A stretch of 64,000 nucleotides of DNA from assembly GCA_964016885.1 (NCBI GenBank), contig OZ024740.1, forward strand, positions 235,786,001 through 235,850,000, written 5' to 3'. Under the pieces are notes generated by a model that was given only the letters and a program-made list of their open reading frames with translations, had not been told where the DNA came from and searched no databases. This document shows, in pieces, positions 5,772 through 42,262 of the stretch. Source of the DNA: Eledone cirrhosa (taxonomy: Eukaryota). Within the stretch, counting starts at the first letter, position 1, and the number at the start of each line of letters is the position of its first letter. Both the position numbers and the translations under genes were made by a program.

Positions 5772-7063
5772 CAGGGTGCGGATGATATTTGTTTGCAAGA
5801 TTATTGTCTAGGAAAAAAATAACACAGTAGTTTTATTTTTTAAGATATATTTATCAAACTTGGGTCAGTTTGTCTTCATGAATTGTTCTTTCGATCTCAC
5901 TCAATAAACCCACCATTGGCTTTGATGACGACCTCAAGGCGGCCTTGGAACCGGCTACAGGCCTTCGTCACTGTTCCCCGACTTAGGCCCCTAAAGGCAC
6001 CTGTGATCCTGGCCTTCAGATCGTCTTTCGTATTGCAGCTAGATCTGTTGGTGGCTCGTTCCACTGCGCCGCACACAAAGAAGTCGAGGAGGTTGCAGTC
6101 AGGCGAGCTGGGAGGCCAGATTTCAGGTGAAGTGTGGTCGGCAAAGTTCTCTGACAGCCAGGCTTGGGTCTTTCAGCTGGTATGGCAGGGTGCTGAGTCT
6201 TGCTGCTACACGTACGGCCTACCTGCAGCTACCTGGTCGATCCAGGGCTTTACTACCTCACTCAGAACGCGGATATAGCCATCGGTGTTCAGCTTGAGGC
6301 CCTCAGGGAAGAAGTGAGGTGGCATAACGCCACCGTCACTGCTGACGACACCTAAGACCAATGTTGTCACTGGAAATTTGTCTGCATGACTCTGGGCACG
6401 TCTTTGGATGAGACAGTGAGCCACCTGTTGTTCTGGGAGTTGATCTTCTGGTCTTGGCAGAAGTTTTTCTCGTCGGAGAAAAACCACAGCATTTCTGGCT
6501 CCAGTGGGTGTTTCAACTTGTTGATCAGCTTCTTTGCATGCTTCAGTCGCTTTTCTTGCATCACCTTTGACAGAAATTGTCCTTTCCTCATCTTGTATGA
6601 AACGTAGCGAATGTCTTCATGTACCACCAGCCTAATGAGCTTTTCATCCACGCCTTTCTCCCTTGCAATGGCACGCATCGACTTGCTAGGTTCATTGTCG
6701 ATGAGATCCTGAACTTCAGCAATGAACTCGGGCGTTCTGAAGGCGTCAGATCGTCGATCATGTTTTCCTCTCTGATGTTGCTTCGTAGTCGAATCCTGAA
6801 TCTTCCAATTCCTTTCTGACCTTTTCCACCATTCTCCTGCTGACGCTGAGAAAGTGTGAAATTTCCTTATTTGTCCTCCCAGCGCGGATTCCAAGAAGAA
6901 CTGTGTCTCTTCCACAAATTTGGAGGTTCAAAATTATTCATAATCAATTATTCTGAAAATAAATAATGGAAATATAGTAACTGTTTTTATGAAAACAAGA
7001 GTGACAACAGAAGTAAAAAAAAATTGCATAGAATTAGCAGTTGAAAATATCGTCCACACCCTG
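5772..7063 (-). mobile_element. Tc1/mariner DD37D (maT/Bmmar1-like) transposon, full length, pseudogenised transposase
   Basis: TIRs CAGGGTGCGGATGATATTT / AAATATCGTCCACACCCTG in TA context. Motifs WFFSDEKNF, QQDSAPCH and WPPSSPDCNLLD with 37 residues between D2 and D3. Frameshifts and stops present. Confidence 0.92.
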
Positions 7064-32504: not shown

Positions 32505-34380
32505 ATCATCATCATCATCATCATCATCGACGTTTAACGTCCGTGTTCCACGCTTGCATGGGTTTGGACGGGGGTAGTCCCACTTGAGGCAAGAGTGATT
32601 GTCTTGCTCGCATAGGACTGTCTGGCAGGTTTTCTACAGTTGGATGCCCTTCCTAACACCAACCACATTTACAGTGTGGGTCTGGGAGGTTTTTACCGTG
32701 TTGCCTACACGGCCACATTACAGCGTGGACTGTGTGTTTTTTTGTCGTGACACCTACACGATCTCATTTGTTTCGGCCTCGATGGCGCGGCACCAACATA
32801 ACTTTACATAGAACGGGGTGGTGTGGATGGGGTGGGGGTGGTGGTGGTGGGACGGGGTGTATTTTGTTAGAGATGCCTACTGGCTGGAGTAGGTTTTACT
32901 ATATATTTAGGTAAGGCGGGTCTTCTCTGTTACTGAGTACCGCCAAAGCCAAAGGTCTCGGTCCAGTGACATTGTCTTGGAGAGGTGTAAGTGTGTGATG
33001 TCGGAGTTTATCAGCTCGTCCCAGGTTTTTCTAGGTCTGCCTATTCCGTGACTACCGTCTATCTTTATTGCCCTGCACTTTGTTATACAGCTATCGACTT
33101 TCATGCGCATCACGTGTCCATACCAACGTAGCCTTCTCTCGAGTAAACAACATCTGATCCCTCTTATCTCTAATTTTTTCCTTAGTTCGTTTATGCTTTG
33201 CCGTTCACGTATATTACTGTTACACATCCAGCGGAGCATGCAAGCTTCGTTCCTCTCTAGTCTGCGTATATCCTCTGCACACAATGCCCAGGTCTCACTG
33301 CCAAGCAGCATTGCTGTTCGTATGCAGGCATCGTACAACCTGCCTTTCATTTTTAGGGAGAACCCTTTAGCAGCTAATAGTGGTATAAGCTCTCTGAACT
33401 TTTTCCAACCAGTTCTGACTCTAGCTACAGTACTTTCAGAGCACCCTCCCCCACTGCTGATTTTATCGCCCAGGTAACGGAAGCTGTCCACTATTTCTAT
33501 AGAACCCTCTGCGCAATTGAAAGAGCTAGTATTTTGTGGGCACTTGCTGCTACTTATTGCACCAGAACACCGGCCACATGTAAAATCTATGTTCTTAGTT
33601 AGCTTACCTGTGATCCCACTACATCTTTTATGCACCCATACTTTGCATTTAGGACATAAAATGGAGTTTCTACCTACGCCTTTCCTACACACCGAGCACG
33701 ACCATTTCCCAGAAGGGACCGCCGCCTTGTTTTCTTTCCTACAAACTAGTACTTTGGTCTTAGCCAGGTTAATTTTAAGTCCTTTTGACTCTAGGCCGTG
33801 CTTCCATGTTTGGAATTTCTTCTCTAGCTCGGCCATTGATTCCGCTATGAGTGTCAGGTCGTCTGCGTATAGGAGTTCCCATGGGCAGCCTGTCTTGAAC
33901 TCCTCTGTTATAGCCTGAAGGGCAATAATAAATAGTAGGGGGCTGAGAACAGAGCCCTGATGGACGCCAACTTTTACGCTAAACTCTTCACTATATTCGT
34001 TGTTAATTCTAACCTTTCTGACTGTTTCTTTATACATGGCTTGTATAGCCCTCACAAGCCATTCGTCAACGCCTAGTTTTCTAAGAGCCCACCAGATAAT
34101 GGAGCGGGGGACTCTGTCGAAGGCTTTCTCCAAGTCGACAAAAGCTAAGTAGAGGGGTTCACCTTTAGCTAGGTACTTCTCCTGTAGTTGTCGTACTATG
34201 AAAAGAGCGTCTGTGGTACTTTTGCTTGACACAAACCCGAACTGCATTTCATCTAGGTCAATTCTCTCTCTGATTAGTTGCGCTATTACTTTTTCCGTGA
34301 CCTTCATGACCTGGTCGATTAATTTAATGCCTCTATAGTTACTCCTATCTAGGGCGTCTCCTTTACCCTTATAACAGTTA
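32505..34380 (-). mobile_element. RTE-clade LINE, 5'-truncated, young
   Basis: Frame is open from the truncation point (NCYKGKGDALDRSNYRGIKLIDQVM) to the stop at 32907; 3'UTR and (GAT)n tail. Confidence 0.95.
32907..34307 (-). CDS. RTE reverse transcriptase (partial ORF2) with PHD-like zinc finger
   Basis: QFGF, AFVDLEKAFDRVP, GVHQGSVLSPLLF, LLYADD; then CSVC..C.KC..WVHKRC..CGRC; then FRYLG, GSETW, RRLRWYGHV, GRPRKTW. Confidence 0.92.
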   Translation of the reverse strand: MKVTEKVIAQLIRERIDLDEMQFGFVSSKSTTDALFIVRQLQEKYLAKGEPLYLAFVDLEKAFDRVPRSIIWWALRKLGVDEWLVRAIQAMYKETVRKVRINNEYSEEFSVKVGVHQGSVLSPLLFIIALQAITEEFKTGCPWELLYADDLTLIAESMAELEKKFQTWKHGLESKGLKINLAKTKVLVCRKENKAAVPSGKWSCSVCRKGVGRNSILCPKCKVWVHKRCSGITGKLTKNIDFTCGRCSGAISSSKCPQNTSSFNCAEGSIEIVDSFRYLGDKISSGGGCSESTVARVRTGWKKFRELIPLLAAKGFSLKMKGRLYDACIRTAMLLGSETWALCAEDIRRLERNEACMLRWMCNSNIRERQSINELRKKLEIRGIRCCLLERRLRWYGHVMRMKVDSCITKCRAIKIDGSHGIGRPRKTWDELINSDITHLHLSKTMSLDRDLWLWRYSVTEKTRLT

Positions 34381-34593
34381 TATATATATATATATAGGTT
34401 AGTTCATAAAAGATCGTTTTCAAACAAGACAATAGATAAATATAGGTGAAGAAAGATTACAGCTCAATATATGAGACTTATCACAATAAACCATTTAGAA
34501 AGCTAAATACAATTCTGTTTTGAGTTGTATGAAATCCATATTTGAAGATGTTTAAGTAACAATATAAACTCACAAATGCTTTATAATAATATC

Positions 34594-37039: not shown

Positions 37040-38513
37040 ACCACCACCATTACTTTTAATTGATCAGTAAACAATAACAGCATCATCATCATCAATAAAA
37101 CAACAAAAAACATCATCGACAACATCATTAACAACAACAGCAACATCATCAACAACACCAACAACAGCAACATCATCAACAACACCAACAACAGTAACAT
37201 CATCATCAGCATCATCAACAAAAACATCATTAGCAACAACAAACAGCAACAATGACAACAGTGTCAACAACCACAACAACAAGAACAGTAACAACAACAG
37301 CAAGGACAACAACAACAACAACTATATCATTATCAATAACACACTCAATAACAACCATAATTAAAACATCATCAGCAACTGCAGCAGCAATAATGATATC
37401 CATAACAGCAGCAACAACAACAACAGCAACAACAACAGCAGCAACAACAACAATAGCAACTACGAAAATAGCAACATAAAAAAATAGCAACTGCTACAAC
37501 ATCAACAACAATAGCAACTACCACAACATCAACCACAAAAATAGCAACTACCACAACATCAACAACAATAACAACTACAACAATAGCAACTACTACAACA
37601 ACAACAACAATAGCAACTACCACAACATCAACCACAAAAATAGCAACTACCACAACATCAACAACAATAACAACTATAACAATAGCAACTACTACAACAA
37701 CAACAACAATAGCAACTACCACAACATCAACCACAAAAATAGCAACTACCACAACATCAACAATAACAACTACAACAACAGTAAAAAACAACAATAGCAA
37801 CTACTACATCAACAACAACAATAGCAACTACCACAACATCAACAACAATAACAACTACAACAACAGTAAAAAACAACAACAATAGCAACTACCACATCAA
37901 CCACAAAAATAGCAACTACCACAACATCAACAACAATAACAACTACAACAACAGTAAAAAACAACAACAATAGCAACTACCACATCAACCACAAAAATAG
38001 CAACTACCACAACATCAACAACAATAACAACTACAACAACAGTAAAAAACAACAACAATAGCAACTACCACAACATCAACAACAATAACAACTACAGCAA
38101 CAGTAAAAAACAACAACAATAGCAACTACCACAACATCAACCACAAAAATAGCAACTACCACAACATCAACAACAATAACAACTACAACAACAGTAAAAA
38201 ACAACAACAATAGCAACTACCACATCAACCACAAAAATAGCAACTACCACAACATCAACAACAATAACAACTACAACAACAGTAAAAAACAACAACAATA
38301 GCAACTACCACAACATCAACAACAATAACAACTACAACAACAGTAAAAAACAACAACAATAGCAACTACCACAACATCAACCACAAAAATAGCAACTACC
38401 ACAACATCAACAACAATAACAACTACAACAACAGTAAAAAACAACAACAATAGCAACTACCACATCAACAACAAGAATAGCAACTACTACAACAGTAACA
38501 ACAATAGTAACTA
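37040..38513. repeat. (CAA)n-derived minisatellite (AATAGCAACTACCACAACATCAAC motifs)
   Basis: Directly visible; continues at 39460-40070 after the inserted palindrome. Confidence 0.95.
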
Positions 38514-38514
38514 T

Positions 38515-39298
38515 ATTATATACATTGGACAGATAGGTGTCCTCATCGTGTTTTGTTGTTCACACAACATTTCGGCTGATGTACTCTCCAGCCTTCATCA
38601 GGTGTCTTGGTGATGTTATTATTAAAGTTTGTTGTTAGGGTGGTGGATTGGCAGTATCGGTAGAGGGTCGGACACCATGCTTTGATGCACAGAGTTACAG
38701 CCCTTGCCATTCTGAGTTCAAATCCCGCCGAGGTTAACTTTGCCTTTCATCCTTACGGGGTCGATAAAATAAAGTACCAGTAATGCACTGGGTAATTGCT
38801 GGCCTTGTGCCTAACGTAGAAACAATTATTAACGTTTGTTCAGGTCACTGCCTAGAATTGAATTCGGAATCTGGGGTTAGTAGCCCACTTTTTAACCACC
38901 CCACCAAAAAAGTGGATTAAAAACTGGGCTACTAACCTCAAGATTCCTAGTACAATTCTAGGCAGTGACCTGAACAAACGTTAATAATTGTTTCTACGTT
39001 AGGCACAAGGCCAGCAAATACCCAGTGCATTACTGGTACTTTATTTTATCGACCCCGTAAGGATGAAATGCAAAGTTAACCTCGGCAGGATTTGAACTCA
39101 GAATGGCAAGGGCCGTAACTCTGTGCGTCAAAGCATGGCGTCCGACCCTCTACCGATACTGCCAATCCACCACCCTAACAACAAACTTTAATAATAACAT
39201 CACTAGGACACCTGATGAAGTCTGGAGAGTACATCAGCCGAAATGGTGTGTGAACAACAAAACAAGATGAGGACACCTATCTGTCAAATATATATAAT
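38515..39298. mobile_element. ~780-bp palindromic composite: tRNA-like head + captured Meta-SINE + hammerhead tail in each arm
   Basis: Arms 38515-38899 and 38912-39298. tRNA-like GTGG..GGGCTACTAACC..GATTCC..AATTCTAGGCAGTGACC. SINE at ~38643-38830 and ~38985-39170. ACAC-CTGATGA-A-GGCTGG..TCAGCC-GAAA-TGTT-GTGT at 38605-38561 (-), decayed copy at 39208-39252 (+). Confidence 0.9.
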
Positions 39299-39417
39299 TG
39301 TTTCTACTTTTGGCACAAGGCCAGCAATTACCCCAGTGTATTACTGGTACCTTATTTTATCGACCCCGTAAGGATGAAAGGCAAAGTTAACCTCGGCGGG
39401 ATTTGAACTCAGATCAT
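39299..39417 (-). mobile_element. Meta-core SINE, 5'-truncated, with 12-bp TSD
   Basis: AATATATATAAT at 39287-39298 and 39418-39429. Confidence 0.85.
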
Positions 39418-39459
39418 AATATATATAATGTAAATGATTCCTCATCTCAAAAATATAGA

Positions 39460-40070
39460 ACAGTAATAGTAACTATCACGACAATAACAACAAAAATAGC
39501 AACTACCATAGCAACTACAGCAACAACACTAGCAACTACCACAACAGTAACAACAATAGCAACTACCACAACATCAACAATAATAGCAACTACCACAACA
39601 ACACTAGCACAACAGTAACAACAACAATAGCAACTACCACAACAACACTAGCACAACAGTAACAACAACAATAGCAACTACCACAACAACACTAGCACAA
39701 CAGTAACAACAACAATAGCAACTACAACAACAGTAAAAATAATAGCAACTACCACAACAACACTAGCAACTATCACAACAGTAACAACAACAACAGTAAA
39801 AACAATAGCTACTACCGCAACTACCACAACAGTAACAACAACAATAGCAACTACTACGACAGTAAAAACAATAGCAACTACGACAACAACACTAGCAACT
39901 ATCACAACAGTAACAACAAAAATAGCAACTACAGCAACAACAATAACCACTACCACAACAATAACAACAAAAATAGCAACAACAATAACCACTACCACAA
40001 CAGTAACAAAAAAAAAGATATCAACTAGAAAAACAAAACCCCATCATCAACTACAATAACAACAACAACA
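39460..40070. repeat. (CAA)n-derived minisatellite, continuation
   Basis: Directly visible. Confidence 0.9.
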
Positions 40071-40384
40071 TAAATAACTAGAAAGAAAAAAAACACCATG
40101 CCCAGGAACAAAAGAGAACATAATGTATAATAAAGAAATCATTAAGTAATTTTAGAATCAAAACCTAATCAAAGTATTTCTGTCTATTTAAAGATGTCTT
40201 TCTTTGAGTGGAATTGGTGAGTGTCGGTCAGTGGTGGAAGCTGACAGTAGGGTGGTGGTGGTCAAAATAAAAGATGTGTTGGAATATTAGTCAATATGTT
40301 ACAATCCTACTTTCACCCCCACTACCATTCCACTGCCATTAAAAGATAGTTGCTGATAGTTTGCTGGAACTGTTCAAAACATTT

Positions 40385-42262
40385 CCACTGCCATTCCACT
40401 GATATCCTACTGACATTACAATGCTATCCCCTGCCATTCCACTGATATCCTACTGACATTACAATGCTATCCCCTGCCATTCCACTGATATCCTACTGAC
40501 ATTACAATGCTATCCCCTGCCATTTGACTGATATCCTACTGACATTACAATGTTATCCACTGTCATTACATTGATATCCTACTGACATTACAATGCTATC
40601 AACAGCCATCTCACTGATATCCTACTGACATTACAATGCTATCCCCTGCCATTTGACTGATATCCTACTGACATTACAATGCTATCAACAGCCATCTCAC
40701 TGATATCCTACTGACATTACAATGCTATCCCCTGCCATTTGACTGATATCCTACTGACATTACAATGTTATCCACTGCCATTACATTGATATCCTACTGA
40801 CATTACAATGCTATCCCCTGCCATTTGACTGATATCCTACTGACATTACAATGTTATCCACTGTCATTACATTGATATCCTACTGACATTACAATGCTAT
40901 CCCCTGCCATTTGACTGATATCCTACTGACATTACAATGTTATCCACTGTCATTCCATTGATATCCTACTGACATCACCATGCTATCAACAGCCATCTCA
41001 CTGATATCCTACTGACATTACAATGCTATCCCCTGCCATTTGACTGATATCCTACTGACATTACAATGTTATCCACTGCCATTCCATTGATATCCTACTG
41101 ACATCACCATGCTATCAACAGCCATCTCACTGATATCCTACTGACATTACAATGCTATCCACAACCATTCATCTGCCATTAAAATGCTATCCCCTGCCAC
41201 TTTACTGTTATGCTACTGACATTAGGATGCTATCCATTGCTATTCCACTGATATCCTGCTGCCATTACAATGCAATCCACTGATATCCTTCTGACATTAC
41301 AATGCTATCCACTGCCTTTCCTCTGCCATTACAATGCTATCCACTGCCTTTCCTCTGCTATCCACTGCCATTCCACTGATATCCTTCTGACATTACAATG
41401 TTATCCACTGCCATTCCACTGATATCCTACTGACATAACAATGCTATCCACTGCCATTACATTGATATCCTATTGACATTACAATGCTATCCACTGCCAT
41501 TCCACTGATATCCTACTGACCTTAGGATGATATCCATTGCCATTCCGCTGATATCCTACTGACACTACAATGCTATCCGCTGATATCCTACTGACACTAC
41601 AATGCTATCCGCTGCCATTCTACTGACATTACAATGCTATTCACCACCATTCTATTGATATACTACTGACATTACAATGCTATGCACTGCCATTCCTCTG
41701 ATATCCTACTGACATTACAACGGCATCCACTGTTGTTCCACTGCCATCCTACTGACATTACAATGCTATCCACTGCCAGTCCACTGCCATCCTACTGACA
41801 TTACAATGCTATCCACTGCCAGTCCACTGCCATCCTACTTACATTACAATGCTATCCACTGCCAGTCCACTGTTATCCTACTTACATTACAATGCTATCC
41901 ACTGCCAGTCCACTGCCATCCTACTTACATTACAATGCTATCCACTGCCAGTCCACTGCCATCCTACTTACATTACAATGCTATCCACTGCCAGTCTACT
42001 GATTTCCTACTGACATTACAATGCTATCCACTGCCAGTCCACTGCCATCCTACTTACATTACAATGCTATCCACTGCCAGTCTACTGATATCCTACTGAC
42101 ATTACAATGCTATCCACTGACATTCCACTGATATCCTACTAACATTACAATGCTATCCACTGACATTCCGCTGACATTACAATGATACTCTACTGACATT
42201 ACGATGCTATCCACTGAGGTTCCACTGATACCCTACTGACATTACAATGTTATCCACTGCTA
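40385..42262. repeat. 43-bp minisatellite built from four 10-12-bp subunits
   Basis: Unit CCACTGCCATT-CCACTGATAT-CCTACTGACATT-ACAATGCTAT; period seen between 40409 and 40452. Confidence 0.95.

What the first reader, a model, noticed from the sequence alone, without database searches (positions are those of the whole stretch)
38515..39460. tRNA-headed hammerhead element that captured a SINE and was then duplicated as a 780-bp palindrome
Seen: each arm, from the centre outward, has a tRNA-like head, then a Meta-core SINE inserted antisense in an AAT linker, then a hammerhead (stem I ACAC/GTGT, stem II GGCTGG/TCAGCC), then a tail. Both SINE copies share private variants (CCTAACGTAG, TTGCCATTCTGAG) absent from the other SINE copies here, so one insertion was copied into both arms. 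Established: tRNA-promoter plus hammerhead units are known (schistosome Sm-alpha). Inference: a Pol III-driven, PLE-mobilised SINE/retrozyme hybrid in a cephalopod that can carry passenger sequence, with inversion arising during integration into a (CAA)n array.
Basis: partly seen in the sequence, partly recalled or inferred. Interest (0 to 1): 0.75.

Follow-up and report, generated by a model that had tools for sequence, protein, structure and literature searches.

The report
Penelope palindrome with twice-copied SINE
This mirror-image sequence is the usual back-to-back stump left by a Penelope-type jumping gene, and its one oddity, the same short repeat sitting in both halves, was likely inserted once and later copied to the other half at the DNA level, so it is not a new self-copying RNA hybrid.

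Summary
The palindrome is real (358-nt arms, 96%), but the unit is the pseudo-LTR (pLTR) of a Penelope-like element (PLE), not a tRNA-headed SINE/retrozyme. Upstream of the 'head' lies the end of the RT/endonuclease ORF, and the 'tail' is the ORF's start; a full-length copy exists. Head-to-head pairs occur at 38 of 58 other sites. The insert has a 12-bp target duplication and a one-sided tail, as published for PLEs.

The SINE-free junction has 120 matches; the SINE-filled one has 3: both arms here plus one independent one-arm insertion. The 'private' SINE variants are subfamily markers, yet a shared 16-bp duplication, a shared change in it and 3 extra bases show one insertion. The arms differ at 2 of 210 non-CpG positions in the insert but 13-16 of about 170 in the PLE part (p 1e-4 to 8e-4). 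The SINE was therefore likely copied arm to arm after integration.

Both B-box-like motifs are broken and the right hammerhead has lost its cleavage triplet. The scan noted similar Penelope palindromes on other DNA before.

The parts
38503..38514 (+). Left copy of the 12-bp target-site duplication (AATAGTAACTAT) of the whole PLE insert, inside a degenerate (AAC)n array
   Evidence: Sequence; printed; array
38515..38899 (-). Left arm: 5'-truncated PLE pLTR, short 3' end without tail, interrupted by the SINE
38562..38605 (-). Left minimal type I hammerhead; core and GUU triplet present, C>T change in the short palindromic helix III; activity untested
38618..38633 (+). Copy of the SINE's 16-bp target duplication with a change shared by both arms (0 of 93 other arms have it), followed by 3 extra bases (38634-38636)
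38637..38824 (+). Full-length SINE (Meta-domain label recalled, not tested), antisense to the pLTR
38825..38840 (+). Other copy of the 16-bp SINE target duplication (the pLTR linker)
38841..38899 (-). Left 'head': PLE UTR with A/B-box-like stub, variant GAATTCAATTC (first B-box G lost)
38900..38905 (.). Junction between the two 5'-truncated arms
38906..38972 (+). Right 'head': PLE UTR, variant GAGTACAATTC (B-box TTC broken)
38973..38988 (+). 16-bp SINE target duplication, first copy (right arm)
38989..39176 (-). Second copy of the same SINE insertion; 6 differences from the left copy, 4 of CpG type
39177..39195 (+). 3 extra bases plus the changed copy of the 16-bp duplication, identical to the left arm
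39208..39251 (+). Right minimal hammerhead, likely dead (triplet GGU, stem II mismatch); the PLE ORF's ATG lies in the core
39299..39417 (-). Independent 5'-truncated SINE in the right arm only, with 12-bp duplication at 39287-39298 / 39418-39429
39430..39464 (+). About 35-nt one-sided PLE tail
39465..39476 (+). Right copy of the 12-bp target-site duplication

Best explanation
This is one head-to-head insertion of two 5'-truncated ends (pLTRs) of a Penelope-like retrotransposon, flanked by a 12-bp target duplication; a SINE inserted once into one arm and was likely copied later into the other arm by DNA-level gene conversion or fold-back template switching. Step 1 (shown as anatomy; enzymology inferred from PMC11167929): the PLE protein cut an AT-rich site in the (AAC)n array, and both DNA ends would have primed reverse transcription at the two start sites about 85-90 and 120 nt into the ORF. 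That gives one short and one tailed arm, both truncated at the A-run before the head. Step 2 (shown): the arms diverged. Step 3 (shown as anatomy): a SINE inserted at the TAATAAT linker with a 16-bp duplication and 3 extra bases; this site is a recurrent target. Step 4 (inferred): the roughly 210-bp insert was copied to the other arm using flanking inverted homology, leaving centre-proximal and outer differences in place. A third SINE landed at the right arm's end, where no mirror homology lies beyond it, and was not copied. The locus is likely inert.
For: Full-length element with pLTR-ORF-pLTR plus inverted partial copy in L106; RVT_1 hits at E 1e-6 and 5e-6, below the Pfam cut-off; best PDB sequence hits are telomerase RTs at weak E 0.012. 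The ORF opens at the ATG in the hammerhead core. 38 of 58 other sites hold inverted pairs. 3' ends of 101 arms cluster at pLTR positions 184-200 and 220-225. Empty junction 120 matches, filled 3 and 2. L063 has an independent SINE at the same site in one arm only, with another 5' junction. Non-CpG arm differences: insert 2 of 210 columns, PLE part 16 of 170 (Fisher p 1.2e-4); 13 with junction-edge columns and the indel dropped (p 8e-4); outer PLE part alone 7 of 100 (p 0.007); against the family median of 4.5%, p 0.01. The arms disagree at a two-site subfamily marker on which 4 of 4 other palindromes carrying it in full agree, so they are not simple copies of one SINE-bearing template.
Against: With CpG sites included the contrast is weaker (p 0.008 to 0.03). 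Shared derived changes also lie outside the insert (pLTR position 143, unique; 23, 135, 173 at CpG), interleaved with arm-specific ones, so a single clean tract is not seen; inheritance from the donor or several tracts is needed. The only other palindrome with a SINE at this site (L063) was not converted. Arms of other palindromes share more derived variants than chance (44 against a mean of 5.6 in 2000 derangements), but this fits a common donor as well as conversion. No intermediate (one-arm) allele was seen; contigs were too short. The endonuclease is read by eye; Pfam and NCBIfam gave no hit.
Confidence: 0.72

Rival explanations
1. Composite retrotransposition: a donor pLTR already held the SINE, and its RNA templated both arms in one PLE insertion; the donor is lost or unassembled. 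Same PLE, no conversion needed.
For: Arms of one palindrome usually share donor variants (23 of 38 pairs). Here 5 derived pLTR changes are shared, 2 of them unique. PLEs can move passenger DNA in trans (PMC3846280, passages).
Against: No donor or sister copy. SINE and PLE parts should then have diverged equally, but they differ 8- to 10-fold at non-CpG sites. The arms disagree at a subfamily marker.
Confidence: 0.14
2. Two independent SINE insertions at the same hotspot, one in each arm.
For: The site is a recurrent target (L063). A second pLTR site was also hit twice (right arm here and L030). The shared SINE variants are subfamily-wide.
Against: Both arms share duplication length, a change in one duplication copy seen in 0 of 93 other arms, 3 extra bases and the same subfamily. 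L063 differs in all of these.
Confidence: 0.03
3. One reading: a Pol III-driven tRNA-headed SINE/retrozyme unit, mobilised in trans by a PLE, that carries passenger sequence.
For: Head and hammerhead are linked in nearly all copies. The head has A-box-like and B-box-like words at tRNA-like spacing and beats 300 shuffles against a genomic tRNA-like locus (p 0.003). 17 of 93 arms begin 94-112 nt upstream of the core, near the head. Contigs of other organisms show a B-box-like loose end upstream of a related hammerhead.
Against: The head is continuous with the ORF's 3' end; 52 of 93 arms extend 120 nt or more upstream of the core, beyond the head, with 5' ends spread out to 1550 nt. The cluster at the head coincides with an A-run where alignments also stop. 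An intact B-box form has 1 match in the genome; neither arm here has it. The p 0.003 test used that single best copy, and the SINE head as positive control did not pass it (p 0.47).
Confidence: 0.07
4. Assembly artefact: one arm's SINE was written into the other arm during assembly or polishing.
For: Palindromes are hard to assemble; no laid contig bridged the locus.
Against: The two SINE copies differ at 6 positions, 4 of them CpG-type decay, and the arms differ throughout; a collapse would give identity.
Confidence: 0.04

Closest known systems
Insertion unit of endonuclease-positive Penelope-like elements (Arkhipova et al. 2013, PMC3846280, passages; Craig et al. 2021, PMC8557442, passages and Fig. 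2 legend)
   Same: pLTRs, adjacent inverted 5'-truncated copy, head-to-head arrangement, 30-40-bp tail at one end only, target duplication of about 10 bp, microsatellite target.
   Different: Here only pLTR stubs remain, and a later SINE sits in both arms.
PAc, Poseidon of Anolis (Frangieh et al. 2024, PMC11167929, parts 1-2 of 4 read)
   Same: ORF starts within the hammerhead; ends of insertions lie about 110-120 nt into the ORF; tail between two RT start sites; both strands cut and extended at AT-rich DNA.
   Different: Not tested biochemically here; this family has an A/B-box-like stub in its UTR.
[quoted passage not shown]
   Same: 4-bp helix I, longer helix II with an unpaired base before it, minimal palindromic helix III; pairs on opposite strands 100-700 bp apart are described there.
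   Different: Both copies here carry changes; the right one lacks the NUH triplet.
Arm homogenisation of inverted repeats by template switching (Abraham and Hazkani-Covo 2021, PMC8604942, abstract only)
   Same: One arm is rewritten from the other.
   Different: Described for short repeats and multinucleotide changes; here about 210 bp would have been copied.
Schistosome Sm-alpha tRNA-promoter plus hammerhead repeat (recalled; cited as Ferbeyre 1998 in PMC4209133) and non-LTR retrozymes (Li et al. 2026, 10.64898/2026.07.22.740005, part 1 of 5 read)
   Same: Type I hammerhead in a short repeat.
   Different: No tandem array, no intact internal promoter, and the unit is continuous with an autonomous PLE ORF.

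Membership tests
EN+ Penelope-like element | Telomerase-related RT in one ORF | tested here: met
   RVT_1 at E 1e-6 and 5e-6, below cut-off; telomerase RT top PDB hits, weak; in family copies L106 and L110, not in the window itself
EN+ Penelope-like element | C-terminal GIY-YIG endonuclease with CCHH motif | tested here: inconclusive
   Motif read by eye at the ORF end; no Pfam or NCBIfam hit
EN+ Penelope-like element | pLTRs on both sides of the ORF, with hammerhead | tested here: met
   L106
EN+ Penelope-like element | Inverted 5'-truncated copy and one-sided 30-40-bp tail | tested here: met
   38 of 58 sites; two clusters of 3' ends; window right arm only
Penelope/Poseidon clade | RT phylogeny; no Zn-finger linker between RT and EN | tested here: inconclusive
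   No such linker seen by eye; no tree built
Minimal type I hammerhead | CUGAUGA and GAAA core, helices I and II, NUH triplet | tested here: met
   Met in the family and in the left arm; triplet and helix II not met in the right arm. No Rfam hit
Minimal type I hammerhead | Self-cleavage as a dimer | not testable with these tools
   Needs an in vitro assay
tRNA-derived Pol III SINE or Sm-alpha-like unit (the 'head') | Intact A and B boxes, tRNA fold | tested here: not met
   0 of 67 heads by ARAGORN; no Rfam hit; intact B-box form 1 match; weak likeness only
tRNA-derived Pol III SINE or Sm-alpha-like unit (the 'head') | Fixed 5' end, independent of a coding element | tested here: not met
   5' ends of 93 arms spread from 9 to 1550 nt upstream of the core
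Non-LTR retrozyme | Tandem units each with a hammerhead; circular RNA | tested here: not met
   No tandem array here; circles not testable
MetaSINE (the passenger) | 66-bp Meta-domain after a tRNA-derived head | tested here: inconclusive
   Label recalled; the paper's consensus was not found in 2 supplement files and file 1 could not be searched. SINE behaviour (high copy, target duplications) shown

The most novel reading that the evidence does not exclude
The two arms were reverse transcribed from two different source RNAs held by one Penelope dimer (they carry different subfamily markers), and the resulting short palindrome then copied a whole 210-bp SINE insertion from one arm to the other. 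Penelope stumps would thus be self-converting hairpins that double passenger insertions, in a family whose pLTR carries a captured tRNA-derived promoter stub.
Probability: 0.25. Interest if true: 0.5.

Novelty: new member of a known kind. Interest (0 to 1): 0.22.

Why it matters
As a system it is ordinary: the inverted stump, tail and minimal hammerhead are published PLE features. Two side points have modest value. First, this is a datable case where a 210-bp insertion seems to have moved between the arms of a sub-kilobase palindrome. Searches listed no report of this for PLE palindromes, though only listings were seen. It also warns that shared insertions in both arms do not prove RNA-level cargo capture. 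Second, the tRNA-like stub is here tied to the UTR of an autonomous PLE, which offers a simpler reading of 'tRNA-headed hammerhead' repeats noted elsewhere. One search listed no paper on a tRNA-derived pLTR.

Tried and rejected
Rfam at gathering and E-value thresholds gave no hammerhead or tRNA hit. ARAGORN found nothing in the window or, relaxed, in 67 heads. Sixteen loci of more distant PLE-like protein matches showed no related head. A related family carrying the left arm's CCAAGACACC variant was sought and not found in this genome (only the arm itself and one one-mismatch copy). Public runs: none held half of the words. Laying contigs was swamped by the SINE or gave pieces of under 80 nt, so no ortholog state, polymorphism or expression could be read. 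No usable RNA run. The protein atlas gave no result. Single-strand folding of a family hammerhead copy gives helix II (z -2.7), the left arm z -1.6, the right arm z -0.5; it does not recover the dimeric hammerhead fold. The shuffle control kept self-pairs and was replaced by derangements. Rejected: DNA-level inverted duplication of the locus (flanks are not mirrored; one target duplication surrounds the whole insert) and the private-variant argument.

Full report
Observation. The window holds an inverted repeat with arms 38515-38872 and 38941-39298, 358 nt, 96% complementary, inside a degenerate (AAC)n array. Each arm has, from the centre outward, a head, an antisense SINE, a hammerhead core and a tail. 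Rfam and ARAGORN report nothing. The whole insert is flanked by a direct repeat AATAGTAACTAT at 38503-38514 and 39465-39476, so it came in as one event.

What the unit is. Searches of the own genome with the hammerhead part and with the head gave 56 and 45 matches from 40 scored candidates each. In these loci head and hammerhead are directly adjacent, without the SINE. Upstream of the head in L004, L012 and L020 lies the end of a reading frame with an endonuclease-like motif, read by eye; Pfam did not name it. That frame has 81 matches in the genome. L106 holds pLTR, ORF, pLTR and an adjacent inverted partial copy. Its frames and a 355-aa frame in L110 match RVT_1 below the curated cut-off, with telomerase RTs as weak best PDB hits. 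The unit is therefore the pLTR of a Penelope-like element.

The palindrome is the family norm. Among 101 other arms at 58 sites, 38 sites hold a head-to-head pair (loci were chosen by similarity to this copy, and 100 of the 120 pattern matches were listed but only part fetched). 3' ends cluster at pLTR positions 184-200 and 220-225; here the left arm is short and the right arm tailed. Inverted 5'-truncated copies, one-sided tails and short target duplications are described in PMC3846280 and PMC8557442 (passages). PMC11167929 (parts 1-2 of 4) shows both strands cut and extended, and two internal RT start sites. PMC4209133 (part 1 of 4) describes the minimal hammerhead and opposite-strand pairs.

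The passenger SINE. The empty linker has 120 matches at up to 2 mismatches. The SINE's 3' junction has 3 matches and its 5' junction 2 (up to 3 mismatches). The third match, L063, is another palindrome with a different SINE at the same site in one arm only, with a different 5' junction. A second pLTR site was also hit twice, in the right arm here and in L030 (64 SINE pieces examined). So these AT-rich linkers are ordinary SINE targets. One insertion is still shown by the common 16-bp duplication, a change in one of its copies found in 0 of 93 other arms, and 3 extra bases.

Order of events. If both arms had been made from one SINE-bearing template, SINE and PLE parts would be equally diverged. 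They are not. The insert differs at 6 of 210 columns, 4 of CpG type; the PLE part at 16 of 170, none CpG (non-CpG Fisher p 1.2e-4; all sites p 0.008). Dropping 3 differences at the junction edge and the indel gives p 8e-4 and 0.03. The outer PLE part alone gives p 0.007, and the family median arm divergence of 4.5% (30 pairs) gives p 0.01. The arms also disagree at a two-site subfamily marker on which 4 of 4 other palindromes carrying it agree; one further pair differs at one of the two sites. The simplest reading is later copying of the insert from one arm to the other by gene conversion or fold-back template switching, a process known for short inverted repeats (PMC8604942, abstract). Against it: shared derived changes at pLTR positions 23, 135, 143 and 173 lie outside the insert and are interleaved with arm-specific changes, L063 was not converted, and no intermediate allele could be seen. 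Arms of other palindromes share 44 derived substitutions against 5.6 expected, which fits either common donors or conversion.

Is the head tRNA-like? No detector calls it. The two common variants, GAGTACAATTC and GAATTCAATTC, are each one change from a B-box-like GAGTTCAATTC (box consensus recalled), which occurs once in the genome. That copy aligns to a genomic tRNA-like locus better than 300 shuffles (p 0.003), but the same test failed on the SINE head (only 16 tRNA loci were available). The first half of the A box is replaced by an A-run. 5' ends of 93 arms spread from 9 to 1550 nt upstream of the core, 17 of them near the head's A-run. A decayed tRNA-derived stub in the PLE's UTR is possible; a working Pol III promoter in this locus is unlikely.

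Hammerheads. Family copies read GAAACGTT then GTGT, a minimal type I motif with palindromic helix III. The left arm keeps the core and triplet with a C>T change; the right arm has GGT for GTT and a helix II mismatch, so it is likely dead. Activity is untested.

Verdict. A new member of a known kind: a Penelope-type inverted stump, with a minor curiosity in the doubled SINE. Earlier notes of this scan describe similar palindromes on other DNA and call such genomes octopus; I did not test the organism. Searches (listings only) showed no paper on arm-to-arm copying in PLE palindromes or on a tRNA-derived pLTR. Interest 0.22.

Noticed in passing
L063:1290-1835 (G000:C1:216608085-216608620): Palindrome of the same family with an independent SINE at the same linker site in one arm; the other arm has a deletion that removes that linker.
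   Followed up: partly
L106:3296-6426 (G000:C2, about 119924296-119927426): Near full-length copy of this PLE family (about 2.7 kb, with frameshifts and stops) with both pLTRs and an inverted partial copy; the sequence past its tail recurs in L026.
   Followed up: partly
window 38607 and 38609: The left arm's CCAAGACACC variant is unique in this genome but matches a short contig of another organism (X4), so it may be an ancestral state; unexplained.
   Followed up: partly
L015:1600-1672 (G000:C4:180637502-180637524): The only family copy with an intact B-box-like word; the two common variants are each one change away from it.
   Followed up: partly
runs X6 and X4, loose ends at window 38605 and 38617: Other organisms hold a related hammerhead at high summed depth, preceded by a GGTTCGA B-box-like word instead of this family's linker.
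   Followed up: no
L129-L157: The SINE often occurs in head-to-tail tandems, new copies landing at the AT-rich 3' ends of older ones.
   Followed up: no
window 3604 (+) and 5366 (-): Two further CTGATGA...GAAA cores with hammerhead-like context from other families.
   Followed up: no
window 32907-34403 (-): 498-aa open frame of a LINE-type reverse transcriptase, by eye.
   Followed up: no
window 6367-6927 (-): 186-aa fragment resembling a Tc1/mariner transposase, by eye.
   Followed up: no
window 40384-42000: 43-bp minisatellite, at least 38 copies.
   Followed up: no
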